From NCBI GenBank assembly GCA_964392085.1, contig CAYMOV010000002.1:27314-91313 (forward strand): a stretch of DNA of 64,000 nt, read 5' to 3'. Positions 1-62,127 of this stretch are shown in pieces (the stretch's first letter is position 1; each line of letters begins with the position of its first letter). Origin of the DNA: an uncultured bacterium (GTDB lineage: Bacteria; Oederibacteriota; Muellerivitia; Muellerivitales; Muellerivitaceae). A program made the position numbers and the translations under genes. The notes below the pieces were generated by a model. It was not told the DNA's origin. It did not search any database and saw only the letters and a list, made by a program, of their open reading frames with translations.

Positions 1-70
1 TTGGCCGTTCGCCGCTAGCCGTTGGCTTAAGCTTAAAAGGCTAACCGCTAACGGCCAACGGCTACCACCC
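1..70. repeat. Palindromic intergenic element built of AACCGCY/GCCAACGG-type heptamers around a central TTAAGCTTAA. Perfect inverted repeats AGCCGTTGGC (17-26) / GCCAACGGCT (54-63) and TTGGCCGTT (1-9) / AACGGCCAA (51-59).
   Basis: Read directly: reverse-complementary arms flank an AAGCTT core. A TAG at 16-18 is preceded by CGTTCGCCGC, resembling the aroA 3' end (CGTTCGCCGTTAG). The element is truncated by the window start. Confidence 0.6.
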
Positions 71-122
71 CATCGGATGTCGTGCCTCGAGTGTCGATAA
101 GAACTGCCAGGATTGAAGGCGC

Positions 123-1229
123 ATGGACATGCCTGAATTCAAAGTCCCGTTAAGGGAACAGATCGCCTCCATCGCGCCCTACGTCCCGGGAAAACCCATC
201 GAGGAAGTCGAGCGGGAGTACGGCATCACCGGCGCCTCGAAGATCGCCTCGAACGAGAACCCCCTGGGTCCCTCGCCCAAGGCGCTCGAGGCGGTCCGGC
301 GGGCCGCGTCGGACCTCCATCGCTATCCCGACGGGTCGGCCTTCCGCCTCCGCCGGGCCCTCGCGGGAAAATTCGGCCGACCGGAGGAAGGCATCCTGCT
401 GGGCAACGGCTCCAACGAACTGCTGGTGCTCCTGGCCCAGTGCGTCCTGGCCCCGGGTGATGAGGTCCTCTTCGCCCAACCCAGCTTCGTGGTGTATCCC
501 CTGGTGACCCAATTGTTCCAGGCGAAGGCCGTCACCCTTCCCCTGAGGGACGACGCCCACGACCTCCAGGCCTTCAGCCGCGCCCTCACCCCGAAGTCCC
601 GGCTGGTCTTCATCTGCAACCCCAACAACCCCACGGGCACCGCGGTGTCCCTCCTGGGGATCGAGGCCCTGCTCAAGACCTGTTCCCCCGAAACCCTGGT
701 GGTCTTGGACGAGGCCTATTACGAGTACGTGGAACTCAAGACCTATTTCGAGTCTTTGGACCTCCTCGAGCGTTACCCGAACCTGGCGGTGCTCCGGACC
801 TTCTCGAAGGCCTACGGCCTGGCGGGACTTCGGGTGGGGTACGGCTTCGCCCATCCGGCGTTGGCCGCCGCGGTGCAGAAGGTACGCCAACCCTTCAACG
901 TGAACAGCCTTTCCCTGGTGGGGGCCGAGGCGGCCTTGGGGGACGGCGAGTTCGTCGCGAAGGCCGTGGCCCTCAACGCGCGGATGCGCTCGCGGCTCCA
1001 GGAAGGCCTCCGGGATTTGGGGTTCCAACCGGCGCCCAGCCAGGCCAACTTCGTGTATTTTAGGGACACCCAGGCCCCGGCCCACTACGAGGCCTTGCTG
1101 CGCCGGGGCGTGATCGTCCGGCCCATGGGGACGGGCGCCTTGCGGGTGACCACCGGTTCTGAGGCGGAAACCGAACGGTTCCTGATCGCCCTGCGGGAAA
1201 TCCTTGGACGTTCGAATGGGGAACCATGA
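123..1229 (+). CDS. hisC: Histidinol-phosphate aminotransferase (class II PLP aminotransferase)
   Basis: 368-aa ORF with HisC hallmarks: SNENPLGPS, NPNNPTG and the PLP-lysine region RTFSKAYGLAGLRVGY. Its stop overlaps the tyrA start (ATGA at 1226). Confidence 0.9.
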   Translation: MDMPEFKVPLREQIASIAPYVPGKPIEEVEREYGITGASKIASNENPLGPSPKALEAVRRAASDLHRYPDGSAFRLRRALAGKFGRPEEGILLGNGSNELLVLLAQCVLAPGDEVLFAQPSFVVYPLVTQLFQAKAVTLPLRDDAHDLQAFSRALTPKSRLVFICNPNNPTGTAVSLLGIEALLKTCSPETLVVLDEAYYEYVELKTYFESLDLLERYPNLAVLRTFSKAYGLAGLRVGYGFAHPALAAAVQKVRQPFNVNSLSLVGAEAALGDGEFVAKAVALNARMRSRLQEGLRDLGFQPAPSQANFVYFRDTQAPAHYEALLRRGVIVRPMGTGALRVTTGSEAETERFLIALREILGRSNGEP

Positions 1230-2065
1230 AGCCGAAAATCGCGATCATCGGGGTGGGGCTTTTGGGCGGGTCCTTGGCCCGGGCACTCCGCCGGAACGGC
1301 GGCTGGGAGATCGTGGGTTGGAACCACCGGGCCTCCTCGCGCCGACGCGCCGCGAAGCTCTTGCGGGTCGCCCCGAGCCTGGAAGCCGCCGTCCGGGGGG
1401 CCCAAGTGGTGGTCCTCTGCGCCCATTCCCTCGCGGTGTGGAAACTCCTCCAGGAGATCCTCCCGTGGTTGGGGAAGGACACCCTGGTGCTGGATGTCTC
1501 CAGCCTCAAGAAAAACCTCTCCGACCGCGCCAAGACCTTGAAGGTCCTCCAGGGCCGTTTCGTGCCCTGTCACCCCATGGCGGGCAAGGAGCAATCCGGG
1601 CCTGAGGCCTCCGACGCGGACCTGTACCGGGACCGTTGGGTTTTCGTCACCCCGATCCCCGGGACGCCGAAAAGGAACATCGCCCGCGCCGCATCACTTT
1701 GGAGGTCCGTGGGCGCCCAGGTGGCGGTTTGGGACCCGGGGGACCATGACCGGCGGGTCGCGGTCACCAGCCACCTGCCGCACCTCCTGGCCTGCGCCTT
1801 GACGGAACTTTATGGGAAGCGGCTGAAGTCCGACCGGGTCCTTTCCGCCGCCGTGGGATCCGGTTTCCGGGACAGCACCCGCATCGCGGGGGGCCATCCC
1901 GTCATGTGGGCGGATATCCTCACCTTGAACGCGCCTGAAATCAGCAAGGCCCTTGCCGCCTACCGGCGGAGGTTGACCGGACTCGAGAGGGACCTGGCCC
2001 GGGGCGACCGGTCCAAATGGGTGAGGTTTTTTGAGCGTTCCCGGTCCATCCGCGAGAAGCTTTGA
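1226..2065 (+). CDS. tyrA: Prephenate/arogenate dehydrogenase
   Basis: N-terminal Rossmann motif IAIIGVGLLGGSLARAL, a conserved HPMAG motif, and the SHLPHLLA region typical of the TyrA family. Translationally coupled to hisC. Confidence 0.85.
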   Translation: MKPKIAIIGVGLLGGSLARALRRNGGWEIVGWNHRASSRRRAAKLLRVAPSLEAAVRGAQVVVLCAHSLAVWKLLQEILPWLGKDTLVLDVSSLKKNLSDRAKTLKVLQGRFVPCHPMAGKEQSGPEASDADLYRDRWVFVTPIPGTPKRNIARAASLWRSVGAQVAVWDPGDHDRRVAVTSHLPHLLACALTELYGKRLKSDRVLSAAVGSGFRDSTRIAGGHPVMWADILTLNAPEISKALAAYRRRLTGLERDLARGDRSKWVRFFERSRSIREKL

Positions 2066-2213
2066 AGAAAATCAAAACCCATTCACCACGGAGGCCACGG
2101 GGGTCACGGAGTTTTAAAGGTCTTTAACAGGGATTTTCTCCGGGCCCTTCGTTTTCCCCGTGGTTCAAATTTTGCCTGAGTCGAAACCGGACCTTAAAAC
2201 CGAAAGGCGCAAC

Positions 2214-3509
2214 GTGACGACGCTCAAGATCCAGCCGGCCAAAAGGATCCAAGGCCGGATCCGGGTTCCCGGGGACAAGTCCATCTCCCACCGCGCGATC
2301 ATGCTGGGATCCCTGGCTTACGGCACCACCCGCGTGGAGAACTTCCTCGATTCGGCCGATTGCCTCTCGACCGCCGAGATCTTCCGGTCCCTGGGGACGA
2401 GGATCCAGCGCGCGGGAACCCGTGTGGTGATCCAGGGCCGGGGCCTCCAGGGCTTGGCGGCGCCGAAGCGGACGCTGGACGCCGGTAATTCCGGCACCAC
2501 GAGTAGGATCCTCCTGGGCCTCCTGGCGGGACAACCCTTTGAAAGCCGGCTAACGGGTGACAAGTACCTCCGCAAGCGTCCCATGCGCCGAGTGACGGAG
2601 CCCGTGTCCCGGATGGGGGCCCAATTCATCGGCAAGGAGCAAGGATCCTTCCTGCCGATCCGGGTGAAGGGCGGCGCGCTCAAGGGCATCCAGTACGAGT
2701 TGCCGGTCGCCAGCGCCCAGGTCAAGAGCGCGATCCTCCTGGCGGGGCTCTACGCCCAGGGGGTGACGTCGGTCACCGAACCCCTTCCCACCCGGGACCA
2801 CACCGAGAGGATGTTCGCGGCCTTCGGGATCCCCCTGAAGCGACGGGGAAAGACCGTTTCCCTGAGGGGCCCGGTCCAACCCTTCAAGGGACGGAACATT
2901 CGGGTGCCGGGGGACATCTCTTCGGCGGCATTTTTTCTGGTGGCGGGGCTCCTGGTGCCCGGTTCCGAACTGACGATCGAAGGCGTGGGGGTGAACCCCA
3001 CCCGAACGGGCCTCTTGGAGGTGCTCCTCAAGATGGGCGCGGACATGTCGGTGACGCCCCGAAAAGTGGGAAAGGGCGAGGAGCCGGTGGCCGACCTTAC
3101 CGTCAGGGCCTCCAAGCTCAAGGCCGTCCAGGTCTGGGGCGCCACCGTGCCCAAGATGGTGGACGAGTTCCCAATCCTGGCCGTGGCCGCGACCCAGGCC
3201 CAGGGTACGACCGTCGTGCGGAACGCCGAGGACCTCCGGGTCAAGGAGTCGAACCGCATCGAGGCCGTGACGGCCTTCCTCACGCGCATGGGAGCCAACA
3301 TCTCCTCGACCCCGGACGGGTGGATCATTAAGGGCCCGACCCCCCTGATGGGCGTCTCGGTGGATTCCCACGGCGACCACCGCATCGCCATGTCGGCGGC
3401 CATCGCCGCGTTGGTGGCGAAGGGCCCCACGGTGATCCGCGACGTGGACAACATCGAGACTTCCTTCCCGGGCTTCGAGAAGTTGTTGGGAAAGGTCGTT
3501 CGCCGTTAG
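2214..3509 (+). CDS. aroA: 3-phosphoshikimate 1-carboxyvinyltransferase (EPSP synthase)
   Basis: LKIQPAKRIQGRIRVPGDKSISHRAIMLGSLA aligns with the E. coli AroA N-terminus ([31 protein letters not shown]). A GTG at 2214 with an upstream GAAAGG is preferred as the start. The ORF is open from an ATG at 2160, which is an alternative. Confidence 0.85.
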   Translation: MTTLKIQPAKRIQGRIRVPGDKSISHRAIMLGSLAYGTTRVENFLDSADCLSTAEIFRSLGTRIQRAGTRVVIQGRGLQGLAAPKRTLDAGNSGTTSRILLGLLAGQPFESRLTGDKYLRKRPMRRVTEPVSRMGAQFIGKEQGSFLPIRVKGGALKGIQYELPVASAQVKSAILLAGLYAQGVTSVTEPLPTRDHTERMFAAFGIPLKRRGKTVSLRGPVQPFKGRNIRVPGDISSAAFFLVAGLLVPGSELTIEGVGVNPTRTGLLEVLLKMGADMSVTPRKVGKGEEPVADLTVRASKLKAVQVWGATVPKMVDEFPILAVAATQAQGTTVVRNAEDLRVKESNRIEAVTAFLTRMGANISSTPDGWIIKGPTPLMGVSVDSHGDHRIAMSAAIAALVAKGPTVIRDVDNIETSFPGFEKLLGKVVRR

Positions 3510-3565
3510 TTTTGTTTTGGCTAACCGCCAACCGCTAACCGCCAACGGCCCTAAGTGACCGACTG
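3510..3565. repeat. Heptamer tandem element (TAACCGC CAACCGC TAACCGC CAACGGC) immediately after the aroA stop codon
   Basis: Read directly: 4 tandem AACCGCY-type heptamers, same family as 1-70 and 5494-5580. Preceded by a T-rich TTTTGTTTTGG. Confidence 0.6.
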
Positions 3566-3605
3566 ACATACCCGAAACTGTTTCACAACAACGAAGGGTG
3601 ATCGC

Positions 3606-4292
3606 ATGACTCAGCAGCCTGTGATTGTCGCCATCGATGGACCGGCGGGGGCGGGAAAAAGCACCGTGGCGAAACGCCTGGCGAAGATACTCGGCTTCCT
3701 CCATATCGACACGGGCGCCATGTACCGTTCCGTCACCCTCGCGGCACTCCGGCAAAAGTTGGACCTGAAGGACGATTCCGCCTTGGAGGCCCTGGCCCGC
3801 CGCTCGAAGATCGTCCTGGAGCCGGGGGAACCTGAGAACAAGGTGTTCCTCGACGGGGAAGACGTCAGCCAAGCCATCCGCACCCCCGAGGTGACGGCGG
3901 CCTCGGCCCACATCGCCAATAGCGTTCCGGTCCGGAGGATACTGGTGGCCCGGCAACAGCAGATGGGCCGGGAGGACGCGCGCCCCTTCGGCGGCGCCGT
4001 CCTGGAGGGCCGGGACATCGCCACCGACGTCTTCCCGGACGCCCCATTCAAGTTCTACCTGGACGCTTCGGTGGAGATGCGGGCGAAGCGGCGCCTACGG
4101 GACCTGGAGAAGGCGGGGGTGAAGACCACTTTAGCGGAGGTTATGGCGGACGTGAAGGCGCGGGACGAGAGGGACATGGGCCGGGCCGTGGGGGGACTGC
4201 GCAAGACGCCCGAATCCATCGTGTTGGACCATTCGGACCTGTCGGTGGATGAGTCCGCGGAGGCCCTGTACCGCATCATTCGGCCCCATTAA
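3606..4292 (+). CDS. cmk: Cytidylate kinase
   Basis: P-loop IAIDGPAGAGKST and the DTGAMYR motif. Cmk-family length of 228 aa. Conserved aroA-cmk-rpsA neighbourhood. Confidence 0.9.
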   Translation: MTQQPVIVAIDGPAGAGKSTVAKRLAKILGFLHIDTGAMYRSVTLAALRQKLDLKDDSALEALARRSKIVLEPGEPENKVFLDGEDVSQAIRTPEVTAASAHIANSVPVRRILVARQQQMGREDARPFGGAVLEGRDIATDVFPDAPFKFYLDASVEMRAKRRLRDLEKAGVKTTLAEVMADVKARDERDMGRAVGGLRKTPESIVLDHSDLSVDESAEALYRIIRPH

Positions 4293-4377
4293 CCGGACGG
4301 GATGCCTTTTATATAATGAAGTAAAAGAATATAATCCCGCCTCCTGACGAACCCCGTGAACGGACCGGACGGCACCC
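4293..4377 (+). promoter_or_regulatory. AT-rich putative promoter region upstream of the DAHP synthase gene (TTTTATATAATGAAGTAAAAGAATATAAT)
   Basis: Locally AT-rich stretch with two TATAAT-like hexamers in an otherwise GC-rich genome. Inference only. Confidence 0.3.
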
Positions 4378-5493
4378 ATGAAGAAGGCGAATAAACCCAA
4401 GAAGCACAGGCTCTCCCAGATCGGGAAGGTGTCGGCCAACGCCCGCACCACCGACACCCACGTGGCCGCCAGCGAACTGCTGATCCCACCCCGCAAGGTC
4501 GCGAAGCTCCTGCCGGCCTCCAAGCGGCACTACCAGACCGTCTTGATGGGCCGCCAGTCGATCCAGAACATCATGGACAAGAAGGACCGTCGCCTGTTCG
4601 TGGTGGTGGGCCCCTGCTCGATCCACGACCCCAAGGCCGCCTGGGAATACGCCAACCGCCTCAAGCGGGTGGCGGCATTGGTCAAGCCCACGATCCAGGT
4701 GGTCATGCGGGTCTATTTCGAGAAGCCCCGCACCACCACCGGGTGGAAAGGCCTCATCAACGATCCGCGCATGGACGATTCGTTCCGCATCGAGGAGGGC
4801 ATCCTCACGGCGCGCCGACTGTTGTTGAAGTTCAACGAGCTGGGCCTGCCCTGCGCCACCGAGGCCCTGGACCCCGTCATCCCCCAATACATCGCGGACC
4901 TGATCAGCTGGTCGGCCATCGGAGCCCGCACCACCGAGAGCCAGACCCACCGGGAGCTGGCCTCGGGGCTCAGCATGCCCGTCGGCCTCAAGAACGCCAC
5001 GGACGGCGGGGTGCAGATCGCCATCAACGGCATCCAGTCGGCCCGATCGAGCCACCACTTCCTCGGCCTGAGCCCCGACGGCCGGTCGGCGGTCATCCGC
5101 ACCACCGGCAACCCCTACGCCCACATCGTGCTCCGGGGCGGCGCCAAGCCCAACTTCGACCCCGAGTCGATCCGATCCTGCGAGGAGGCGCTGGCCAAGG
5201 CGAAACTCCCGGTCAACATCGTGGTGGACTGCAGTCACGGCAATTCCAACAAGGACTACCGTCTCCAACCCGTGGCCTTCGAGAGCGCCCTTTCCCAGGT
5301 CGAGGCGGGGAACAAGTCGATCGTGGGCATGATGCTGGAAAGCCACCTGAACGAAGGCAACCAGCCGATCCCCAAGAACCTGAAGGAACTGAAATACGGG
5401 GTCTCGGTGACCGACGCCTGCATCAACTGGGAAACCACCGAGGAAATCCTCCTGGACGCGCATAAGAGGTTGTCGAAGGTGGTCAACCGATAA
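4378..5493 (+). CDS. aroG: 3-deoxy-7-phosphoheptulonate (DAHP) synthase, class I (AroF/G/H type)
   Basis: RLFVVVGPCSIHDPKAAWEYANRL and VMRVYFEKPRTTTGWKGLINDP match E. coli AroG nearly residue for residue. About 20-aa basic N-terminal extension. Confidence 0.9.
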   Translation: MKKANKPKKHRLSQIGKVSANARTTDTHVAASELLIPPRKVAKLLPASKRHYQTVLMGRQSIQNIMDKKDRRLFVVVGPCSIHDPKAAWEYANRLKRVAALVKPTIQVVMRVYFEKPRTTTGWKGLINDPRMDDSFRIEEGILTARRLLLKFNELGLPCATEALDPVIPQYIADLISWSAIGARTTESQTHRELASGLSMPVGLKNATDGGVQIAINGIQSARSSHHFLGLSPDGRSAVIRTTGNPYAHIVLRGGAKPNFDPESIRSCEEALAKAKLPVNIVVDCSHGNSNKDYRLQPVAFESALSQVEAGNKSIVGMMLESHLNEGNQPIPKNLKELKYGVSVTDACINWETTEEILLDAHKRLSKVVNR

Positions 5494-5580
5494 CGACGCG
5501 GTTGGCGGTTGGCGGATTGCGGTTAGGGTAAGCCTAAAGCTTAAAGCCTGATCCATCCGCCATCCGCTATCCGCGAGAAA
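5494..5580. repeat. Large imperfect palindromic element: (GCGGTTG)x4, then GCCTAAAGCTTAAAGCC, then (ATCCGCY)x3
   Basis: Read directly after the aroG TAA stop. The two heptamer blocks are mutually reverse-complementary around an AAGCTT core. Inverse-orientation copy of the 3510-3565 element. Possible hairpin or terminator. Confidence 0.6.
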
Positions 5581-5592
5581 GCGTCTTTCGAT

Positions 5593-6240
5593 ATGTATCT
5601 CCCCTCCTTCCCCGCGGTGCGGCTCGTCACCTTCATCCCGGTCCGCCTTTTCCTCCGGCCGGACATCCGGGGCCTTGAAAACATCCCCCAGACCGGGCCC
5701 TTCGTGGTGGTGTCGAACCACGCCTCCAACCTGGACCCCTACCTCATGGGCTACGCCAGCGTCCGGCGGGCCGTCGGCTTCATGGCGAAGGAGGAACTTT
5801 TCCGCATCCCGGTCTTCGGCCCCGCCATCCGGCGCTGGGGCGCCTTTCCCATCAAGCGGGGAAGGGTGGACGAGGAGGGCATCCAGAAGTTCTACGATTT
5901 CATCCACTCCAACCACCCGGTGGTGATCTTCATCGAGGGGACCCGCACCCTGGACGGTGAGCTCCAGCCCCCCAAGAAGGGCGTGGGGATGCTCCTGCAA
6001 AAGGTGCGCGTTCCCGTGATTCCCGTGTACATCGGGGGTACCTTCCAATGCTGGCCCAAGGGAAAGACCTTCCCGAAACCCGGCAAGGTCAAGATCATCT
6101 ACGGTCCGCCCGTCCCCTTGGACGACCTTTACGCGCTTCCGGCCGAGAAACCGACCTATCGTTTGATCGCCGAACGGTTGATGGATCGGATCCGCGGCCT
6201 GAAGGAATCCCAGAACCCCTCCGGGACCCCCATTCCCTGA
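5593..6240 (+). CDS. plsC: 1-acyl-sn-glycerol-3-phosphate acyltransferase
   Basis: HxxxxD acyltransferase motif (VVVSNHASNLDPYLMG), FPIKRG, and the EGTRT region. Confidence 0.8.
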   Translation: MYLPSFPAVRLVTFIPVRLFLRPDIRGLENIPQTGPFVVVSNHASNLDPYLMGYASVRRAVGFMAKEELFRIPVFGPAIRRWGAFPIKRGRVDEEGIQKFYDFIHSNHPVVIFIEGTRTLDGELQPPKKGVGMLLQKVRVPVIPVYIGGTFQCWPKGKTFPKPGKVKIIYGPPVPLDDLYALPAEKPTYRLIAERLMDRIRGLKESQNPSGTPIP

Positions 6241-6451
6241 GTATCCCCAATTGGTCAGGCCCTTTTCGGGTGGAAATGACACCCATGGCCGGGCTATCAT
6301 TCTTGACGAATTTCATGTTTCGACGAAGTGCGCTCAAACCCCCCCGGGGGAGTCGGAACGTCGAGTCAAAATAGGAAAGGCCACACCTAAATTGGAAACC
6401 GAAACCAACAACGAACCCCTAGAGTCTATGGAAGCCCTCGGAGAGGGCGAG

Positions 6452-8176: not shown

Positions 8177-8191
8177 TCCGGTCGTAAACGA

Positions 8192-8227
8192 AGCCCGGTC
8201 CCCACTGGGGCCGGGCTTTTTCGTTTT
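8192..8227 (+). terminator. Rho-independent terminator downstream of rpsA
   Basis: Stem AGCCCGG(T)CCCC / GGGGCCGGGCT with a short loop, followed by TTTTTCGTTTT. Confidence 0.7.
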
Positions 8228-8323
8228 GGGATGTGGAACGGCAAATCGGCGATCGTCGAATGAGGACCTGACAAGGACGATTGGGTTTCGAGTCAACGCA
8301 GGAAATACCCTGGGGGCGGTCCA

Positions 8324-9703: not shown

Positions 9704-9978
9704 GGACGGCCTGGGTCTTTAGGTCATCGTTGCATGGGGCCGGCATGACTTCTTTTATCCTCAAAGACAAGCCTTAACACTGGGCCCGGCTTTTCATTTA
9801 AGCTTAAAACAAGCCATAACCCGTCCCTGATAACGAACTGCTTGTTGGACTAGCGACATTGGAATAACATGGCTGGCAATTAGCTGGTGTTTGAAGGATT
9901 GGGCTTCAGGCGTACGTTCGCCGAATGGAATCTTGATCCGTAAGCATTACATTCTGCAGGCAAAAAGGTCTAGGACGA

Positions 9979-29849: not shown

Positions 29850-29925
<76 letters not shown>

Positions 29926-30067: not shown

Positions 30068-30144
30068 CGGGGCGTGGCGCAGCCTGGTAGCGCAATTGCA
30101 TGGGGTGCAAGAGGTCGCAGGTTCAAATCCTGCCGCCCCGACCA
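30068..30144 (+). tRNA. tRNA-Pro: tRNA-Pro (anticodon GGG)
   Basis: Acceptor CGGGGCG/CGCCCCG, D-arm GCGC-AGCCTGGTA-GCGC, anticodon loop ATGGGGT, T-arm GCAGG-TTCAAAT-CCTGC, encoded CCA. Confidence 0.8.
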
Positions 30145-37474: not shown

Positions 37475-37551
37475 GCCCTCGTAGCTCAGATGGATAGAGC
37501 GACCCTTTCCTAAAGGGTAGGCCACGTGTTCGACTCACGTCGAGGGTACCA
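37475..37551 (+). tRNA. tRNA-Arg: tRNA-Arg (anticodon CCU)
   Basis: Acceptor GCCCTCG/CGAGGGT, D-arm GCTC-AGATGGATA-GAGC, anticodon arm ACCCT-TTCCTAA-AGGGT, T-arm ACGTG-TTCGACT-CACGT, encoded CCA. Confidence 0.8.
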
Positions 37552-54643: not shown

Positions 54644-54728
54644 AATTCAAAATGTGAAATCGGATTTGAGCCTTGTTGATTATGTTTTCATTGTTCATTT
54701 TACATTATCCATTATTCATTTCTTCGTT

Positions 54729-56645
54729 TCAGTGCCTATCGAACCGCCGGTACAGGTCCGTCAGGGGGATGGACATCAGGGTGGGCCTCCCGTGCGGGCA
54801 GGTGAAGGGTATGTTTTCCTTCCGCATGCGGTCGATCAAGCCTCGCATTTGGTCCTCGTTGAGCCGGTCCCCCGCCATGACCGCGCTGCGGCAGGACATG
54901 AACGCCGCGGCCCTTCGGCGGATTTGCTCGATTCGACGCTCGCCCTGGACGCCGGTGGACTCCTCCTGGGCGATCTGGTCGGCCAGGTCCCGGACCACCG
55001 AGGCAGGGTCCTTCCCCGAGAGGTCCGAAGGGACGGCCTTCACGATGAAGGTGTTGCCGCCGAAAGGCTCGACCTCGAGGCCCAATCCCGCCAGGATCTC
55101 CAGGCACCCGGTGAGGTTCTGGGTCTCCCGGGGCGGCAGGTCGAAGGTGATCGGCACCAGCAGTGGTTGGACCTCCACTTGGCGCCTTTTCCATTGGTCC
55201 AGGATCTTCTCGAAGTTCAACCGCTCATGGACCGTGTGCTGGTCCGCGATGAAGAGCTCGGAATCGGATTGGAAAACGATGAAGGTGTTGAAAAACTGGG
55301 AGAACTGGTAAAGCGGAACGGTCGGATCGATCCGACGGGCGTTCATCTCCAGCGCGGCGGGGGCCTGGTGACCCAGGCCTTGGGTCAGTTGGGCGAACGG
55401 GAGGTCCGAGGGGGGTGATCCGGAAGGCGCTTCCCAGAGTCCGGTCGGCATGGGTTCCGCGGCTTGGGCCAAGGGGCCCTGGCGAAGGACGCCATAGGGG
55501 GTTTCGGGGAAGGGGACGGGTTGGGGCGCGCCACCGCCCGCGGGGGCCGGGGTTTGATACGACCCCGGCACACCCAAAGCGCCGCCTCGGCTGGAGGCCT
55601 CGGCGGAGGGGCCGAGGGGCGAATCCAGCAGGGTCCGCCGCACGGCCTGAACCAAGGCGTCATAGACCGTCCGGTCCTGTGCGAACTTCACTTCCCTCTT
55701 AGTTGGGTGGATGTTCACGTCCACGGCCTCGGTCGGGAGGTCGAGGAAAAGCGTTCCCGCCGGGAAGCGCCGGGTGGGCAGGAGGGTTTGGTAGGCCGTC
55801 ATCACGGCGTGGGAAAGCGAGGGGTTCATCACCCATCGCTTGTTCACGAAGAAGAAGAGGGATTCCCTCGTGGATTTGGTGACGGCCGGTTCGGTGACGG
55901 CTCCGGAGACCTGGAGGGGCCCCGCCTGGTGGGAAACCGGGAGCAGGTGCTTGGCCAAATCCTTGCCGAAAACGTCCCGGCGGCGGGATTCGGGGGTTCC
56001 GGGGGCCGAATCAAGGATGCGCCGGCCGTCCACCGTGAGTTGGAACGCCGTCCCGGGGAAGGCCAGGGCGTAGGTGGTGACCACCAGGGCCGCCCGGTCG
56101 TTCTCGGTGCCGGTCTTCTTCATGAACTTGAGTCGGGCCGGGGTGTTGAAGAACAAGTTTGAGACGGAAACCGTGGTGCCCCTCGGTCGGGGCGCCGGGG
56201 TGCCCTCGACGGCCCCCCCGCCCCGGACCCGGATGCGGTAACCGGTGTCCTTGGACTCGACCCGGGTGGTCAGTTCGAAATGCGAGACGGCGGCCAGGCT
56301 GGCCAGGGCCTCTCCCCGGAAGCCGAAGCTCCGGAGTGATCCCAGGTCCTCGACGGAGCTGATCTTGCTGGTGGCGTGGTTCTCCACGGCCCGGCGCGCG
56401 TCCTCGGGGTCCATCCCCGAGCCGTCGTCGGTGACCTTGATGAGCTTGAGGCCGCCCTCCTGGATCTCGACGGTGATGGACTGGGCCCCGGCGTCCAAGG
56501 CGTTTTCCACCAGTTCCTTCACGACCGAGGCGGGCCGTTCCACCACCTCGCCGGCGGCGATCTGGTTCACGGTCTTGGCGTCGAGGATTCGGATGGGTTT
56601 CAAGGATCGCCTTGGAGGTTTGATCGGACCTGAGAACGGTCCCAT
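54729..56645 (-). CDS. mutL: DNA mismatch repair protein MutL
   Basis: GHKL ATPase N-terminus (NQIAAGEVVERPASVVKELVENALDAGA; DDGSGM). C-terminal dimerisation/endonuclease region. Conserved mutL-miaA linkage. Confidence 0.9.
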   Translation of the reverse strand: MGPFSGPIKPPRRSLKPIRILDAKTVNQIAAGEVVERPASVVKELVENALDAGAQSITVEIQEGGLKLIKVTDDGSGMDPEDARRAVENHATSKISSVEDLGSLRSFGFRGEALASLAAVSHFELTTRVESKDTGYRIRVRGGGAVEGTPAPRPRGTTVSVSNLFFNTPARLKFMKKTGTENDRAALVVTTYALAFPGTAFQLTVDGRRILDSAPGTPESRRRDVFGKDLAKHLLPVSHQAGPLQVSGAVTEPAVTKSTRESLFFFVNKRWVMNPSLSHAVMTAYQTLLPTRRFPAGTLFLDLPTEAVDVNIHPTKREVKFAQDRTVYDALVQAVRRTLLDSPLGPSAEASSRGGALGVPGSYQTPAPAGGGAPQPVPFPETPYGVLRQGPLAQAAEPMPTGLWEAPSGSPPSDLPFAQLTQGLGHQAPAALEMNARRIDPTVPLYQFSQFFNTFIVFQSDSELFIADQHTVHERLNFEKILDQWKRRQVEVQPLLVPITFDLPPRETQNLTGCLEILAGLGLEVEPFGGNTFIVKAVPSDLSGKDPASVVRDLADQIAQEESTGVQGERRIEQIRRRAAAFMSCRSAVMAGDRLNEDQMRGLIDRMRKENIPFTCPHGRPTLMSIPLTDLYRRFDRH

Positions 56646-58638: not shown

Positions 58639-58665
58639 TCTCCGTGGTTAAAATGTCGGTTTTGT

Positions 58666-60228
58666 TCAGGCCTTGAGGCCGGTCACTTCGAAGACGGCGA
58701 TCTTGTGGCTCTTGCCCTTCACCTGGACGGGGTCGAGCTTCTTGGTTTCCAGTTGGTCCCCGACCGCCGCGAGGACGGACTCGGTGATGAGGATCTGGTT
58801 GCCGCCGCTCTCGCCCTCGACCCGGGCCGTGGTGTTGACCATGTCCCCGATGGCGGTGTAGTCCATGCGTTTCTCGCTGCCGATGTTGCCCACGATGCAC
58901 TCGCCGGTATTGATGCCGTAACCCACCTGGATCTGGGGCTTCCCCTCCTGCGCCCACTTGGCGTTCAGGGTGACCAACCGTTCCTTCATCTTGAGGGCGG
59001 CCTTCACGCACTTGAGGACCGGATCCTTCACGTCCAGGGGCGCGCCCCAAAGGGCCATGATGGCGTCCCCGATGAACTTGTCGATGGTCCCCTCGAACGA
59101 GAAGATCACCTCGCTCATGGCGCTGAAGTACTCGTTGAGGAGCGACACGATGGTCTCGGGGGTTTCTTTCTCGGCCAGGGGGGTGAAGCCGCGGATGTCC
59201 GAAAAGAGGACCGTGATGGGTTTCTTCTCGCCGCCCAAGGCCAGCACCCCGCCGCCCTTGGTGATGATGTCGTCCACCACGTTGGGGGAAAGGTACCGTT
59301 GAAGGGTGGTCCGCAGGCGCTCCTCGCGCCGGACATTGTCGAAAAGCTTCGCGTTGGCGATGGCCACGGCCGACTGGTTGGCGAAGGCCGAGAGGAAGTA
59401 CATGTCCTCCTCGGTGAAGGTGCTGGTGCCCTCGGCCTTGTCCACGTAGATCACGCCGATGATGTTGTCCTTCTCCCAGATCGGCACGCAGATGACCGAG
59501 GACAGGGGCAGGGCCTGGAGGCTCTCCCGGTTGGCGAAACGCGAGTCGTGGATGGCGTCCAGCACCAGGACGGGTACCCGCTCCCGCAGGACGGTGTCCA
59601 CGATGCCTTGGCTGTAGGGGGCTTGGGACTCGGCGGCCGTCAAGGCGTGGGTGGCGACCGGCGAAAGCTTGCCCTCGCCGTCCTTCAGCAGGAGGAAACC
59701 CCGGTTGGCCTGCATGACCTTGATGGCCATGCCCATGACGATCCCCAGCAAGGTCTTGAGTTCCAGGACCGAATTGACGATGTTGCCGACCTCGTAGAGG
59801 GTCAGGAGCTTCTTATGGGCCAGGTCCTCGACCTTGGGGGCCTTGGCATCCATGGTTTCCCGGGTCACCTCGACGGCGAACCGCATGCGGGTGTTGCCGA
59901 CCGAGATGATGTCCTGGTTGCGGAGGGGCGACTCGGAGATCTTGGTGCCGTTGAGGAGGGTGCCGTTGGTGGACCCCAAGTCCTTCACGTTCACCCCGCC
60001 CATGCCCAGCATGATCTGGCAATGCTGGCGGGACACCAGGGGGTCGGAAAGGACCAGTTCGCAGGCGGAGGACCGGCCCACGACGGTGGTGGGCTTGGTG
60101 ATGCGGAAAACCTGGCCTTGTTCCGGCCCGGCCAACAAGGTCAGGAGGATCTGGGGTTTTCCCCCTCCCCCCTTGGGCGGCGTCAGGACGATTCGGCTGG
60201 TTTTTCCCGGTTCAGCGGCCATGGACAC
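58666..60228 (-). CDS. FHA domain - GAF domain - class III adenylate/guanylate cyclase
   Basis: FHA: VVGRSSACELVLSDPLVSRQHCQI...GSTNGTLLNG. Central GAF. Cyclase: VLFSDIRGFTPLAE...KFIGDAIMALWGAP. Confidence 0.8.
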   Translation of the reverse strand: MSMAAEPGKTSRIVLTPPKGGGGKPQILLTLLAGPEQGQVFRITKPTTVVGRSSACELVLSDPLVSRQHCQIMLGMGGVNVKDLGSTNGTLLNGTKISESPLRNQDIISVGNTRMRFAVEVTRETMDAKAPKVEDLAHKKLLTLYEVGNIVNSVLELKTLLGIVMGMAIKVMQANRGFLLLKDGEGKLSPVATHALTAAESQAPYSQGIVDTVLRERVPVLVLDAIHDSRFANRESLQALPLSSVICVPIWEKDNIIGVIYVDKAEGTSTFTEEDMYFLSAFANQSAVAIANAKLFDNVRREERLRTTLQRYLSPNVVDDIITKGGGVLALGGEKKPITVLFSDIRGFTPLAEKETPETIVSLLNEYFSAMSEVIFSFEGTIDKFIGDAIMALWGAPLDVKDPVLKCVKAALKMKERLVTLNAKWAQEGKPQIQVGYGINTGECIVGNIGSEKRMDYTAIGDMVNTTARVEGESGGNQILITESVLAAVGDQLETKKLDPVQVKGKSHKIAVFEVTGLKA

Positions 60229-60318
60229 TCCGAATGCAATTGGGGATCAGGAATGCTGAATGGGGAATGCCTTTAAAGGAATCCCGCATTCCTCATTTCG
60301 AATTCCGCGTTGTTGGTT

Positions 60319-62127
60319 TCATCCCTTTTTCAACTCGTAGACCACTACGTTGCAGTTGGCGATGTCGGTCAGGTAGAGGGAATTGTCCACATCGGTGCAG
60401 GTCCCCCAGTAGCGCGGGGCTGTCTTGTAGGATCCCGAGGGGGTCCCGAACTCGGTGACGTAGTATCCCTCCGGGTCGAACACCTGCACCCTCAGGTTGC
60501 GGTCGGTCACGAACAGGTTGCGCTTGGTGTCGGCCGCCACCCCCATCGGGTAGGCGAACTCACCCCGGCCCGTCCCCCGCTTGCCGAACTTGTTCTTGAA
60601 GACCCCCCGGGGGGTGAAGATCTGCACCCGGTAGTTCTTCTCATCCACGACCATGATCTGGCCGCTGTTGTCGGTGGCGATACCCGCCGGCGCGTTGAAC
60701 TCGCCGAGCCGGGCCCCGTGGTTGCCGAACTTGTTCAGGACCTTCCCCGCCGGGTTGAAGACCCGGATCCGGTTGTTGCCCGAGTCGCAGACGTAGATGT
60801 TGTCGTTGCCGTCCAGGGCCACGCCCTGGGGGTGGGAGAAGCCCCCCATGCCGACCTCGATTTTACCAGACTCGGGGGAAGCGGGTTCCCCGAACTTGGT
60901 GAGCACCTGCCCTGATTTCCCGATGACCTGGACCGTGCAGAGCTTGGCGTCGAGCACCACCATGTTACCCGCCTGGTCCACGGCCAGGGAGACGGGCATC
61001 AGGAAGCAGACTTCCTTGGGATCGGGGGAATCCTTGCCGAACTTCCCCACCGAATAGAGGTACTTGCCCTCGGGGTCGAAGACCTGCACGTTGCATTTGA
61101 GCGCGTCGGCCACGTAGACCCGCCGCTGGGAGTCGACGGCTACCGCCATGGGCTGCATGAACTGTCCCTCGTCCTTGCCCCGGGTGCCCAGGACCCTCGC
61201 GGCGCGGTAGGAATAACCGCGGTACCGGAACTGGTTGATGTCGGGGACTTCCTTCACCTCGGGCTTCTTCTCGCCCTGGATCAGCGTGCCGGCGGATTGG
61301 GATTCCCCACTGGTCTTCTGGGTGACGGGCTTGTCCAGGAACTCGGCCGGGATGGCCTCCAACTCGGCCTTCATCTCCTGGGCCGACTGGTAGCGCTTGG
61401 CGGGCTCCTTTTGGAGGGCCTTGAGGATGATGTTTTCGAGCATGGGCGGGACGCTGGGGTTGATCTTGCGGGGCGGCATGGGGTCGTCTTTGAGGATCTT
61501 ATTCAGCAGGACCATGGCCACTTCATCGATGAAGGGCAGTTGGCCCGTGACCATCTCATAGAGTATGACGCCGACCGAGTAGATGTCCGAGGCTGGGACC
61601 GGGTGGCCCAACACCTGTTCCTTGGCCATGTAATAGAGGGTGCCGCCGATGCCGGGACCCTTGGTGGCCTGGGACATGGTGGCGGTTCCGAAATCGGTGA
61701 TCTTGACCTTGCGGTCGCTCGTCAGGAGGATGTTGGCGGGCTTGAGGTCCCGGTGGATGACATTCTTCTCGTGGGCGTATTGCACGGCGGATAGGATCTG
61801 GGAGACCAGGTCCACGACCTCGCGGAGCGTGAGGGTGGCGTCCACCATCAATTGCCCCAGGTTTTGCCCGTCCACATACTCCATGACCATGAAGAAGATG
61901 TTCTCGGCCTTATCGACGGTCAGGATCTGGACGATATTGGGGTGGGCCAAGGAGGCGAGGAGTTTCGGTTCGGCGATCAGGCGGGTAAAATCTTCCTTTT
62001 GGTTGTGGGGGATCTTAAGGGCCACCTGTTTGCCCATCCAGGTATCCTCGGCCAGCCAGACGGTCCCGAAGGTGCCGCTTCCCTTTATTTCCAGGAGTTT
62101 GTATTTGTCGATGAAGCCCTGGAGCAT
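60319..62127 (-). CDS. Ser/Thr protein kinase with C-terminal NHL-repeat beta-propeller
   Basis: Kinase: GSGTFGTVWLAED, VALK, HRDLKPANILL, DFG. C-terminus: six NHL-like repeats (GEFNAPAGIATDNSGQIMVVDEKNYRVQIF). Confidence 0.85.
   Translation of the reverse strand: MLQGFIDKYKLLEIKGSGTFGTVWLAEDTWMGKQVALKIPHNQKEDFTRLIAEPKLLASLAHPNIVQILTVDKAENIFFMVMEYVDGQNLGQLMVDATLTLREVVDLVSQILSAVQYAHEKNVIHRDLKPANILLTSDRKVKITDFGTATMSQATKGPGIGGTLYYMAKEQVLGHPVPASDIYSVGVILYEMVTGQLPFIDEVAMVLLNKILKDDPMPPRKINPSVPPMLENIILKALQKEPAKRYQSAQEMKAELEAIPAEFLDKPVTQKTSGESQSAGTLIQGEKKPEVKEVPDINQFRYRGYSYRAARVLGTRGKDEGQFMQPMAVAVDSQRRVYVADALKCNVQVFDPEGKYLYSVGKFGKDSPDPKEVCFLMPVSLAVDQAGNMVVLDAKLCTVQVIGKSGQVLTKFGEPASPESGKIEVGMGGFSHPQGVALDGNDNIYVCDSGNNRIRVFNPAGKVLNKFGNHGARLGEFNAPAGIATDNSGQIMVVDEKNYRVQIFTPRGVFKNKFGKRGTGRGEFAYPMGVAADTKRNLFVTDRNLRVQVFDPEGYYVTEFGTPSGSYKTAPRYWGTCTDVDNSLYLTDIANCNVVVYELKKG

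What the first reader, a model, noticed from the sequence alone, without database searches (positions are those of the whole stretch)
1..5580. Family of AAGCTT-centred heptamer-repeat palindromes placed immediately after stop codons of aromatic-pathway genes
Elements sit at 1-70, 3510-3565 (after the aroA TAG) and 5494-5580 (after the aroG TAA). They are built from tandem AACCGCY / GCGGTTR heptamers in inverted blocks around a TTAAGCTTAA-like core. The two 3' copies are inverse-orientation versions of each other. A related perfect palindrome TTTTAAGCTTAAAA occurs at 9797-9810. The 13 nt before the element at the window start (CGTTCGCCGCTAG) nearly match the last codons of aroA (CGTTCGCCGTTAG), suggesting the element is associated with or includes a conserved gene-end. 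They resemble REP/MITE-like elements or bidirectional terminators. Heptamer arrays could also be protein-binding sites.
Basis: seen in the sequence. Interest (0 to 1): 0.5.

Follow-up and report, generated by a model that had tools for sequence, protein, structure and literature searches.

The report
Heptamer-built hairpin repeats after stop codons
Three short non-coding stretches in an uncultured bacterium's aromatic amino-acid operon are runs of 7-base units that mostly fold into hairpins just behind stop codons. They are a new example of a simple-repeat type already described in Xanthomonas and cyanobacteria, not a regulator specific to this pathway.

Summary

**Structure.** E1 (window 1-66, starting 4 nt upstream of the window), E2 (3495-3552) and E3 (5498-5575) are each one continuous 7-nt lattice of 8-11 units (GCSGTTR ... 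GCTTAAG|CTTAAAR ... YAWCSGC). The "AAGCTT core" is only the junction of two lattice units, and E2 has none.

**Folding and position.**
- E1 and E3 fold into long hairpins (-42 and -52 kcal/mol). E2 folds weakly, by pairing with the last codons of aroA, which the lattice has overwritten.
- None has a U-tract, although this genome uses canonical terminators elsewhere. There is no Rfam match.

**Distribution.**
- Two more members (E4, E5) follow non-aromatic genes on another contig of the same population.
- All five members start 3-7 nt after a stop codon or overlap it.
- Three relatives lack the repeats. The closest relative has a hairpin with a different heptamer unit in the same aroA-cmk spacer.
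- Permuted control heptamers are as common as this unit in viral contigs. Inverted heptamer arrays with many different units occur across phyla.

**Verdict.** This matches the intergenic heptameric repeats of Xanthomonas (Rehm 2015): about 4 units, convergent pairs, next to or overlapping stop codons. It is a new member of a known kind. The likely effect is that of a REP-like mRNA stem-loop, which is inferred, not shown.

The parts
1..66 (.). E1: a heptamer-lattice palindrome between pheA and hisC. The full element is L001:5620-5689, which is window -3..66. Units: GCCGTTG GCCGTTC GCCGCTA GCCGTTG GCTTAAG CTTAAAA GGCTAAC CGCTAAC GGCCAAC GGCTACC.
   Evidence: Sequence, lattice. The RNA fold is -41.7 kcal/mol, z -5.7. 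The stem starts 4 nt after the pheA stop codon TGA (L001:5612-5614). No U-tract follows.
3495..3552 (.). E2: a partial member overlapping the 3' end of aroA. Units: GTCGTTC GCCGTTA(G) GTTTTGT TTTGGCT AACCGCC AACCGCT AACCGCC AACGGCC. The left arm is codons V V R R plus the stop codon TAG (3507-3509). There is no AAGCTT centre.
   Evidence: The fold is -28.7 kcal/mol, z -2.3. nhmmer aligns E1 12-72 to 3494-3550, E 2.4e-4. The aroA end uses rare codons GTT (7.7%) and CGT (7.5%) and the rare stop TAG (3 of 37). P(GTC GTT CGC CGT TAG | VVRR*) = 5e-5. The relative L127 has GTC GTC CGG AAG GCG TGA at this position.
5498..5575 (.). E3: a heptamer-lattice palindrome between aroG (DAHP synthase) and plsC. 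Units: GCGGTTG GCGGTTG GCGGATT GCGGTTA GGGTAAG CCTAAAG CTTAAAG CCTGATC CATCCGC CATCCGC TATCCGC G.
   Evidence: The fold is -51.9 kcal/mol, z -5.6 on the + strand, and -41.4 on the - strand. The stem starts 3 nt after the aroG stop codon TAA (5491-5493). It is homologous to E4 on L142, nhmmer E 6e-10.
60238..60306 (.). Same kind of repeat with a different unit: an imperfect palindrome with a 7-nt lattice ([GT]GAATG[CG] / GCATTCC type, TTTAAA centre). It lies in the spacer after the stop codon of the kinase gene 60319..62127 (-).
   Evidence: Inverted repeats I1 and I6. Lag-7 self-match is 14 of 21, against 9 or fewer at other lags. The fold is -31.6 kcal/mol, z -1.8 on the + strand.
54686..54728 (-). 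Same kind of repeat with a different unit: a solo AT-rich heptamer array (NAATGAA x5-6 on the - strand) that starts directly after the stop codon TGA of gene 54729..56645 (-). It forms no hairpin.
   Evidence: TRF gives period 7, 4.9 copies. Lag-7 self-match is 17 of 21. Fold z is +0.7 and -0.15.

Best explanation
E1-E3 belong to a small dispersed family of intergenic heptanucleotide repeats. This is the class described as over-represented heptameric simple-sequence repeats in bacteria, and in Xanthomonas as GGGAATC arrays that often form convergent inverted pairs next to stop codons.

**Shown**
- Each element is one 7-nt lattice of 5-11 units: GCSGTTR, an AT-rich centre GCTTAAG/CTTAAAR, then YAWCSGC.
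- The full versions (E1, E3, E4) are imperfect palindromes of 70-79 nt. E2 and E5 are partial or solo arrays.

**Inferred: origin.** The lattice probably grows and homogenises by DNA-level slippage of 7-nt units. It is copied between sites by an unknown route. It persists only in the transcribed strip between a stop codon and the next signal (SD, promoter or terminator).

**Inferred: effect.** In the mRNA, the full versions fold into 25-30 bp hairpins whose foot lies 3-6 nt past the stop codon, and which have no U-tract. They are therefore expected to act as REP-type intercistronic stem-loops rather than as terminators:
- as barriers to 3'-to-5' exonucleases that stabilise the upstream cistron;
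- as a brake on termination or ribosome release for that cistron, because the foot lies inside the footprint of a terminating ribosome.

They are not a regulatory device specific to the aromatic pathway.
For: **Anatomy.** One continuous 7-nt lattice per element.

**Hairpins.** E1 -41.7, E3 -51.9, E4 -48 to -52 kcal/mol, z -3.8 to -5.7.

**Family beyond the operon.**
- E4 lies after an apbC/mrp-like gene (L142:3854-3932).
- E5 lies after a sugar-nucleotidyltransferase/PGM gene (L307:7045-7076).
- Both sit on contigs from the same samples, with tetranucleotide correlation 0.974 to the window. That equals the value for a fragment of the window itself. Relatives give 0.90-0.93 and unrelated contigs 0.77 or less.
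- E3 and E4 are homologous and lie in opposite orientation to their upstream genes (E 6e-10).

**Position.** All five members start 3-7 nt after a stop codon or overlap it. My arithmetic from these coordinates, for uniform placement within the four non-overlapping spacers, gives about 6e-5.

**Not ancestral operon signals.** Relatives L125, L127 and L129 keep the gene order with spacers of 1-52 nt and carry no such arrays. The pheA and aroG C-termini are native.

**A general heptamer process.**
- Other units occur in the same window.
- The closest relative, L308, has a hairpin with a different unit 5 nt after the aroA stop codon, and other heptamer arrays in neighbouring spacers.
- In loci from other phyla there are 245 period-7 arrays, against 13, 26, 16 and 4 for periods 5, 6, 8 and 9.
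- Adjacent same-unit arrays are inverted in 28 pairs and direct in 12.
- Permuted control heptamers are as frequent in viral contigs: 41 loci for the target, 77 and 15 for the controls.

**Literature.**
- PMC4692102 describes the same architecture in Xanthomonas: mostly 4 units, 70-75 convergent pairs, between aligned ORFs, within 50 bp of or overlapping the stop codon, transcribed, not linked to IS elements.
- PMC4679880 summarises Mrazek 2007 on the excess of heptanucleotide repeats.
- REPs closer than 16 nt to a stop codon down-regulate translation (PMC12306157, citing its reference 17).

**Not terminators.** There are no U-tracts, while canonical terminators exist after rpsA and after E5.
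Against: - No transcript data, so folding and any effect on mRNA are inferred.
- There is no consistent strand asymmetry. E3 folds better on the sense strand by 10 kcal/mol, but E1 and E4 fold better on the antisense strand.
- The two SNPs between the E4 alleles both break base pairs and are not compensated. This argues against strong selection on the hairpin.
- E5 and E2 are not full hairpins.
- No +/-7 nt length polymorphism was seen among five assemblies. Slippage is therefore not demonstrated, although those assemblies differ by only 0.04%.
- Only five copies are known. Three of them lie in one operon, which simple random dispersal does not explain.
- Unlike the Xanthomonas and Nostoc repeats, the unit is not G-rich and cannot form a G-quadruplex.
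Confidence: 0.55

Rival explanations
1. The elements are true non-autonomous mobile elements (REPIN- or MITE-like foldback elements), copied by a transposase encoded elsewhere in the genome. The heptamer periodicity would then reflect the enzyme's binding sites.
For: - Copies lie at three or more unlinked loci and in both orientations. E3 and E4 share an almost identical 22-nt arm segment plus the centre.
- The elements are absent from three relatives.
- A second, unrelated hairpin family (ACCACGGAG...CTCCGTGGTT) has two copies in the same window, one of them in the same operon.
- The aroA 3' end has been replaced by element sequence.
Against: - There are no target-site duplications and no sharp common termini.
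- GTAG/CGTC tags are inconsistent.
- No Y1 or other transposase was found among the proteins scanned; the only recombinase is a phage-type integrase 36 kb away.
- Partial and solo arrays (E2, E5) exist, and arrays with other units occur in the same genome and in the closest relative. These fit repeat growth in place better than a defined element.
- The same architecture in Xanthomonas is not linked to mobile elements.
Confidence: 0.22
2. The elements are Rho-independent (possibly bidirectional) transcription terminators or attenuators that subdivide the aromatic operon.
For: The hairpins are stable, GC-rich and placed directly after cistrons. On the antisense strand, E1 is followed by a U-rich stretch.
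Against: - No U-tract follows any element on the sense strand.
- The consensus scan finds a classical terminator only after rpsA (8190-8219).
- E5 is followed by its own hairpin+U8 terminator.
- Downstream genes have no promoter-like sites except aroG, so termination at E1 or E2 would silence hisC-tyrA-aroA-cmk.
- Relatives do without these elements.
Confidence: 0.06
3. The 7-nt arrays are binding platforms for a multimeric RNA- or DNA-binding regulator of aromatic amino-acid genes. The analogy is HutP, which reads NAG triplets in a 7-nt register, and TRAP.
For: - Three of the five known copies lie in one aromatic supraoperon.
- The register is regular, with invariant GC..AAC/GTT positions.
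- The orthologous aroA-cmk spacer of the closest relative also carries a heptamer-lattice hairpin.
Against: - Two members follow unrelated genes.
- The unit in the relative is different, and three relatives have nothing at these positions.
- The same genome has arrays with other units.
- Permuted control heptamers are equally common in viral contigs.
- No candidate regulator gene lies in the locus.
Confidence: 0.05
4. The elements are integron attC-like recombination sites that follow gene cassettes.
For: They are imperfect palindromes of 58-79 nt directly after stop codons. The units resemble the attC core sites RYYYAAC/GTTRRRY (GGCTAAC, GTTAGGG).
Against: - The genes are core genes in an order conserved in relatives.
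- The units are tandem, not single R''/R' boxes at the two ends, and most miss the consensus by one base.
- There is no integron integrase next to the array. The only tyrosine recombinase is 36 kb away beside unrelated genes.
- Orientation relative to the upstream gene is not constant: E3 and E4 are opposite.
Confidence: 0.01

Closest known systems
Intergenic heptameric repeats of Xanthomonas (GGGAATC) and Nostoc (GGGGAYT), Rehm et al. 2015, PMC4692102
   Same: - Tandem 7-nt units, mostly about 4 per array.
- Frequent convergent inverted pairs able to form stem-loops or cruciforms.
- Located between co-directional ORFs, within 50 bp of the stop codon or overlapping it.
- Dispersed, and not linked to IS elements.
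- Not at the same genes in related species.

Sources: compared.
   Different: - The unit here is GCSGTTR/YAWCSGC. It has no G-tracts, so no G-quadruplex can form.
- The two arms are joined by an AT-rich centre in the same 7-nt register, giving one compact 70-79 nt palindrome.
- Copy number per genome is unknown.
Long simple-sequence repeats with heptanucleotide excess (Mrazek et al. 2007, as summarised in PMC4679880); cyanobacterial STRR heptamers; TAACTGA repeats of Beggiatoaceae
   Same: A 7-nt unit in intergenic, short arrays of 2-6 copies. The unit contains YAAC. The distribution is sporadic and lineage-specific.
   Different: TAACTGA arrays are direct repeats (only one inverted case was reported) and sit just upstream of start codons. 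Here the arrays are mostly inverted pairs just downstream of stop codons.
REP / BIME / REPIN elements of Enterobacteria and Pseudomonas
   Same: Imperfect palindromes in transcribed spacers of operons, close to stop codons. The expected effects are mRNA stabilisation and, when closer than 16 nt to the stop codon, reduced translation of the upstream gene.
   Different: - No GTAG/CGTC tag.
- The arms are tandem heptamers rather than 20-40 bp palindromic units.
- No RAYT gene seen.
- High copy number not shown.
MITEs / foldback elements (Correia, RUP, ERIC, Nezha and similar; named from my own knowledge)
   Same: Small size, hairpin-forming, several copies, and able to overlap gene ends and supply a stop codon.
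   Different: No target-site duplication, no defined terminal inverted repeats distinct from an internal part, and partial or solo arrays exist.

Membership tests
Intergenic heptanucleotide SSR (LSSR; Xanthomonas GGGAATC type) | Head-to-tail repeats of a 7-nt unit, 3 or more copies, more than chance would give | tested here: met
   TRF gives period 7 with 3.7-4 copies per arm. Whole elements have 5-11 units, lag-7 identity 0.59-0.68, reached by 0 of 5000 shuffles. Lag 7 is the only lag that stands out in the spacers.
Intergenic heptanucleotide SSR (LSSR; Xanthomonas GGGAATC type) | Intergenic, mostly between co-directional ORFs, within 50 bp of the stop codon or overlapping it | tested here: met
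   All five members lie between co-directional genes and start 3-7 nt after a stop codon. E2 overlaps the aroA stop codon.
Intergenic heptanucleotide SSR (LSSR; Xanthomonas GGGAATC type) | Frequent convergent inverted pairs of arrays | tested here: met
   E1, E3 and E4 are inverted pairs. The same arrangement is common for many units in other phyla: 28 inverted against 12 direct adjacent pairs.
Intergenic heptanucleotide SSR (LSSR; Xanthomonas GGGAATC type) | Many dispersed sites per genome | tested here: inconclusive
   Five sites were found in about 89 kb of sequence attributable to this population. The whole genome was not available, and the metagenome scan was incomplete because it missed the known E3 loci.
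Intergenic heptanucleotide SSR (LSSR; Xanthomonas GGGAATC type) | Unit-number (+/-7 nt) polymorphism from slippage | tested here: not met
   There are no indels among five assemblies for E1-E3 or between the two E4 alleles. Power is low because the strains are 99.8-99.96% identical.
G-quadruplex-forming heptameric repeats (subclass of Rehm 2015) | Four or more G-tracts (G3 or longer) in the array | tested here: not met
   The units GCSGTTR/YAWCSGC contain no G3 runs.
REP / REPIN | Conserved GTAG or CGTC tetranucleotide at one end of each REP | tested here: not met
   GTAG is present at one end of E1 only (GGTAGCC on the - strand). CGTC is present at one end of E3 only. E4 and E5 have neither (sequences).
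REP / REPIN | Two 20-40 bp REP units, each itself palindromic, in inverted orientation | tested here: not met
   The arms are tandem heptamers, not self-palindromic units. Only the whole element is a palindrome.
REP / REPIN | Cognate RAYT (Y1 transposase) gene flanked by REPs; more than 100 copies per genome | not testable with these tools
   No transposase was found among ten window proteins from atypical regions, and none appears in the called genes of L001, L305 and L307.
MITE | Target-site duplication flanking the element | tested here: not met
   The flanks are ATCAA|...|ACCCC (E1), CGAC|...|GAGAA (E3) and AAACAAC|...|CGCCG (E4). None contains a direct repeat.
Intrinsic (Rho-independent) terminator | GC-rich hairpin followed at once by a U-tract | tested here: not met
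   The hairpin is present, but there is no U-tract. The scan reports none at the three sites, while it finds the rpsA terminator. E5 is followed by a separate hairpin+U8.
Integron attC | Single R''/L''...L'/R' boxes, an adjacent integron integrase, and mobile cassettes | tested here: not met
   The units are tandem. The genes are core genes in a conserved order. No IntI gene is adjacent.
Any Rfam RNA family | Covariance-model match | tested here: not met
   cmscan on 1-10200 at E up to 1 gives only two chance-level hits, both elsewhere.

The most novel reading that the evidence does not exclude
The placement and the register could themselves be functional. Under this reading, a hairpin (or single-stranded array) built on a 7-nt lattice, starting 3-7 nt after the stop codon, would be a selected device coupled to translation termination, or a platform for a protein that reads RNA in 7-nt steps. 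It would be maintained at the aroA-cmk junction in two lineages despite complete turnover of the unit sequence. It would also be shared, with different units, by the many heptamer-rich bacteria in which inverted heptamer arrays lie next to stop and start codons.
Probability: 0.07. Interest if true: 0.65.

Novelty: new member of a known kind. Interest (0 to 1): 0.3.

Why it matters
As it stands, this is a tidy example of a poorly understood but already described repeat class, found in an uncultured lineage.

Its practical value is for annotation. These sites should not be called terminators, riboswitches or aromatic-pathway regulators, and the end of aroA is repeat-derived.

It adds three points to the general picture of heptameric repeats:
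- A non-G-rich unit shows the same inverted-pair, stop-codon-proximal architecture as the Xanthomonas repeats. That architecture therefore does not depend on G-quadruplex formation.
- The whole palindrome, centre included, keeps a single 7-nt register.
- An orthologous spacer in a relative carries a hairpin built from a different unit.

If stop-codon proximity proved to be selected, it would link heptameric repeats to control of translation termination or mRNA decay. That function has been an open question since these repeats were first noticed.

Tried and rejected
1. **Cross-phylum homology.** I first read this as a conserved motif. Two results reject that reading: permuted control heptamers in viral contigs were as common (41 loci against 77 and 15), and the loci hold many other heptamer units.
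2. **Stop-codon proximity in other phyla.** The analysis was biased, because YAAC arrays carry TAA in all three frames and end any ORF that runs into them. I did not use it.
3. **Strand asymmetry of G-U pairs as evidence for an RNA function.** The results were inconsistent.
4. **Compensatory changes.** The only two allele differences break base pairs.
5. **Extending the genome sample.**
   - Two look-ups failed on start-codon choice.
   - One gave only 2 kb more sequence.
   - Cluster look-up gave no taxon name.
   - The single metagenome scan returned mostly chance hits and missed the known E3 loci, so copy number cannot be estimated from it.
6. **RAYT or transposase search** in atypical regions of the window found none.
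7. **Rfam** found nothing.
8. **TRAP- or HutP-type binding sites.** TRAP needs GAG/UAG triplets at a 5-6 nt period. HutP needs NAG at a 7-nt period, but the units here carry UAA/CAA. Both were considered from my own knowledge and not pursued.
9. **The 9797 palindrome as a family member.** It shares 12 nt with the E1 centre, but has no arms, no nhmmer hit and no significant fold. Its status is left open.

Full report
**Context**

The window (62% GC) comes from an uncultured bacterium. Its AroA and ApbC-like proteins have only unnamed metagenomic relatives at 60-74% identity. Named taxa are at most 55% (AroA) and about 59% (ApbC-like).

The first 8 kb hold a Bacillus-like aromatic supraoperon:
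- pheA, which ends 9 nt before the window
- hisC (123-1229)
- tyrA (1226-2065)
- aroA (2214-3509)
- cmk (3606-4292)
- aroG, a DAHP synthase (4378-5493)
- plsC (5593-6240)
- rpsA

Two ENA and three JGI contigs carry the same sequence at 99.94-99.97% identity with no indels. The repeats are therefore not assembly artefacts.

**Checking the observation**

They are the only strong short-period signal in the window's spacers. Lag 7 is the only lag that gives 16 of 21 or more local self-matches. It does so in four spacers: the three reported sites and 54644-54728.

Written in register, each element is one uninterrupted 7-nt lattice:
- E1: GCCGTTG GCCGTTC GCCGCTA GCCGTTG GCTTAAG CTTAAAA GGCTAAC CGCTAAC GGCCAAC GGCTACC
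- E3: GCGGTTG GCGGTTG GCGGATT GCGGTTA GGGTAAG CCTAAAG CTTAAAG CCTGATC CATCCGC CATCCGC TATCCGC
- E2: GTCGTTC GCCGTTA GTTTTGT TTTGGCT AACCGCC AACCGCT AACCGCC AACGGCC

The "AAGCTT core" is the junction of two AT-rich lattice units. E2 has none.

E1 and E3 fold into long imperfect hairpins: -41.7 and -51.9 kcal/mol, z -5.7 and -5.6. E2 folds weakly (-28.7 kcal/mol, z -2.3), by pairing its distal units with the last codons of aroA.

nhmmer links the three sites to each other and to nothing else in about 70 kb.

- E1 begins 4 nt upstream of the window.
- The 13-mer taken for a gene end lies inside E1's left arm. pheA ends at TGA, 5 nt before the element.
- The palindrome at 9797 is TTTAAGCTTAAA (12 nt). 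It shares 12 nt with the E1 centre but has no arms and no significant fold.

**The end of aroA**

Homologues end in KV[VS][RK][RK]-type sequences of the same length, give or take one residue. The C-terminus is therefore not an extension.

The DNA, however, is lattice: GTC GTT CGC CGT TAG.
- It uses two rare codons (GTT 7.7% of Val codons, CGT 7.5% of Arg codons) and the rarest stop codon (TAG, 3 of 37).
- The probability of these exact codons given V-V-R-R-stop is 5e-5.
- Relative L127 has GTC GTC CGG AAG GCG TGA at this position.

I infer that the repeat has overwritten about the last 10 nt of aroA. The pheA and aroG C-termini are native: pheA's YPRSEN* is identical to L125, and aroG has the same length.

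**The family extends beyond this locus**

It returned 41 hits, about what chance predicts. One was the E1 locus. One was a new copy, E4, on L142 (3854-3932), 7 nt after the stop codon of an apbC/mrp-like gene.

E4 is clearly homologous to E3 (nhmmer E 6e-10). It lies in the opposite orientation to its upstream gene.

The same locus from another sample (L307) carries a fifth member, E5. It is a solo array (GCCGTTG GCCGCTA GCCGTTG GCCGTTA GCC) 5 nt after the stop codon of a sugar-nucleotidyltransferase/PGM gene. A classical hairpin+U8 terminator follows about 45 nt later.

L307 has a tetranucleotide correlation of 0.974 with the window. That is the same value as a fragment of the window itself. 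Related lineages give 0.90-0.93 and unrelated contigs of the same GC content give 0.77 or less. Its proteins also show the same isolated phylogenetic pattern. It is therefore most likely the same genome.

The family is not unique to the locus and not restricted to aromatic genes. Only about 89 kb of this population could be examined, and the scan missed the known E3 contigs. Copy number therefore remains unknown.

**Position relative to stop codons**

All five members start 3-7 nt after a stop codon or overlap it. This holds even where the spacer is 192-201 nt long (E4, E5).

For uniform placement within the four non-overlapping spacers, I calculate a joint probability of about 6e-5 from the coordinates. 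This is my own arithmetic.

Part of the effect may come from constraint. Downstream SD and promoter signals must be kept, and the ancestral operon spacers were short (1-52 nt in relatives).

**What the elements are not**

- No Rfam family matches.
- No U-tract follows any element. The genome uses classical terminators at operon ends: rpsA at 8190-8219 and after E5.
- There is no target-site duplication and no consistent GTAG/CGTC tag.
- No transposase was found in the regions scanned.
- An attC identity is excluded by the conserved core-gene order and by the tandem units.

**Comparative evidence**

Three relatives (AroA 66-68% identical) keep the gene order with tight spacers and no such arrays.

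The closest relative (P0002, 69% identical, contig L308) behaves differently. In the orthologous aroA-cmk spacer, 5 nt after the stop codon, it has a hairpin built on another heptamer:
- Sequence: GTTGTTA GTTGTTG GTTGTTG ... AAACAAC CAATAAC CAATAAC CGC
- Fold: -31 kcal/mol, z -3.0
- It also has further heptamer arrays at the hisC end and a palindrome after tyrA.

The window itself holds a heptamer-lattice palindrome with a third unit (60238-60306) and an AT-rich solo array directly after a stop codon (54686-54728).

The recurring feature is therefore the architecture, not the sequence.

**Is the unit special?**

Three controls show this is a general heptamer effect:
- Composition-matched permuted heptamers are as common in viral contigs: 41 loci for the target against 77 and 15 for the controls.
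- The retrieved loci carry 245 period-7 arrays with many units, against 13, 26, 16 and 4 for periods 5, 6, 8 and 9.
- Adjacent same-unit arrays are inverted more often than direct: 28 against 12, and 15 against 11 in the control loci.

**Comparison with what is known**

This is the known excess of heptanucleotide simple-sequence repeats in bacteria (Mrazek 2007, as summarised in PMC4679880).

Its inverted form is described for Xanthomonas GGGAATC repeats (PMC4692102):
- about 186 sites per genome, mostly four units;
- 70-75 convergent pairs able to form stem-loops or cruciforms;
- mostly between aligned ORFs, within 50 bp of the stop codon or overlapping it;
- transcribed, and not linked to IS elements;
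- not at the same genes in two related species.

The present family meets these features. It differs in having a unit that is not G-rich, so no quadruplex can form. It also has a compact centre kept in the same register as the arms.

**Mechanism**

Shown:
- the lattice anatomy;
- the predicted hairpins;
- placement next to stop codons;
- dispersal to three or more loci in both orientations;
- patchy presence across related lineages;
- overwriting of the aroA end.

Inferred:
- growth and homogenisation by 7-nt slippage (no length variants were seen, but the strains differ by only 0.04-0.2%);
- copying between sites by an unknown route;
- in the mRNA, a REP-like role as an exonuclease barrier;
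- a brake on termination of the upstream cistron, because the stem foot lies inside the footprint of a terminating ribosome. REPs closer than 16 nt to a stop codon are reported to down-regulate translation (PMC12306157 citing its reference 17).

Evidence against strong RNA-level selection:
- strand preference of the folds is inconsistent;
- the two E4 allele differences both break base pairs;
- solo arrays exist.

**Verdict**

The feature is real, and it is ordinary in kind: a new member of the intergenic heptameric-repeat class. It shows modest points of interest:
- a single register runs through the whole palindrome;
- every known member lies close to a stop codon;
- a hairpin with a different unit sits at the orthologous site in a relative;
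- three of the five known copies, plus a hairpin of a second family, lie in one operon.

Interest 0.3.

Noticed in passing
window 2085-2164 (+) and 58555-58649 (- orientation): A second, unrelated palindromic repeat family with a 9-nt register: AACCACGGAG-N4-CGGGGGTCACGGAG ... CTCCG.G.CCT.CGT.T.CCCCGTGGTT. One copy starts 19 nt after the tyrA stop codon, in the same operon. The other starts 16 nt after the stop codon of gene 58666..60228 (-). Folds are -38 and -54 kcal/mol. The seed pattern has 3 matches against 0 expected.
   Followed up: partly
window 60238-60306: An imperfect palindrome on a 7-nt lattice with a different unit (GGAATGC/GCATTCC type, TTTAAA centre), after the stop codon of a Ser/Thr kinase gene. 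The unit resembles the Xanthomonas GGGAATC repeat.
   Followed up: partly
window 54686-54728: An AT-rich solo heptamer array (NAATGAA x5-6 on the - strand) that begins directly after the stop codon of gene 54729..56645 (-). It forms no hairpin.
   Followed up: partly
window 9788-9815: GGCTTttcaTTTAAGCTTAAAacaAGCC, a small palindrome. Its centre shares 12 nt exactly with the E1 centre (TTAAGCTTAAAA), an AT-rich 12-mer in a 62% GC genome. It has no heptamer arms. It could be a relic or a coincidence.
   Followed up: partly
L308:2473-2534, L308:165-245 and L308:1100-1165 (closest AroA relative): The relative's aroA-cmk spacer has a (GTTGTTR)3...(YAAYAAC)3 hairpin 5 nt after the stop codon. The 3' end of its hisC runs into an (AGTTTTG)4 array, followed by GGCCAAC-type units. 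Its tyrA-aroA spacer holds another palindrome.
   Followed up: partly
L142:3916 and 3923 compared with L307: The two alleles of E4 differ by T>A and C>G at the same phase of two neighbouring units. Each change is to the complementary base, and each breaks a predicted pair.
   Followed up: partly
window 5487-5497 and L307:7077-7086: E3 and E5 are both preceded by the same 8-mer, GATAACGA, which contains the stop codon TAA. This could be an insertion-site preference or part of the element.
   Followed up: no
loci L012, L038, L049, L070, L074, L112, L120, L122 and others (other phyla): In Steroidobacteraceae, Opitutae, Gemmatimonadota and other groups, GCYAACC arrays often lie directly upstream of start codons (..GCCAACcgcttcttcttcATG). 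As inverted pairs they always have the order GCGGTTR-left / YAACCGC-right.
   Followed up: partly
window 4289-4335: The cmk-aroG spacer is AT-rich and holds the only good sigma-70-like promoter matches in the first 10 kb (TTAACC-17-TATAAT). aroG-plsC-rpsA may therefore be a separate transcription unit.
   Followed up: no
window 10516-10789: Tandem repeats of 54 and 108 nt (72-78% matches) lie inside a 1514-aa ORF (9979-14523) that has no Pfam match.
   Followed up: no
window 41605-42678 (-); tRNAs at 29850-29925, 30068-30144 and 37475-37551: A phage-type tyrosine integrase gene sits in a stretch of lower coding GC3 (about 40-45 kb), about 4 kb from tRNA-Arg(CCT). This may be an integrated element and is unrelated to the repeats.
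   Followed up: no
Metagenome-contig collection: The pattern scan did not return JGI contigs L003 and L004, which contain an exact match (E3). That collection, or the scan of it, is therefore incomplete, and absence from it is not informative.
   Followed up: yes
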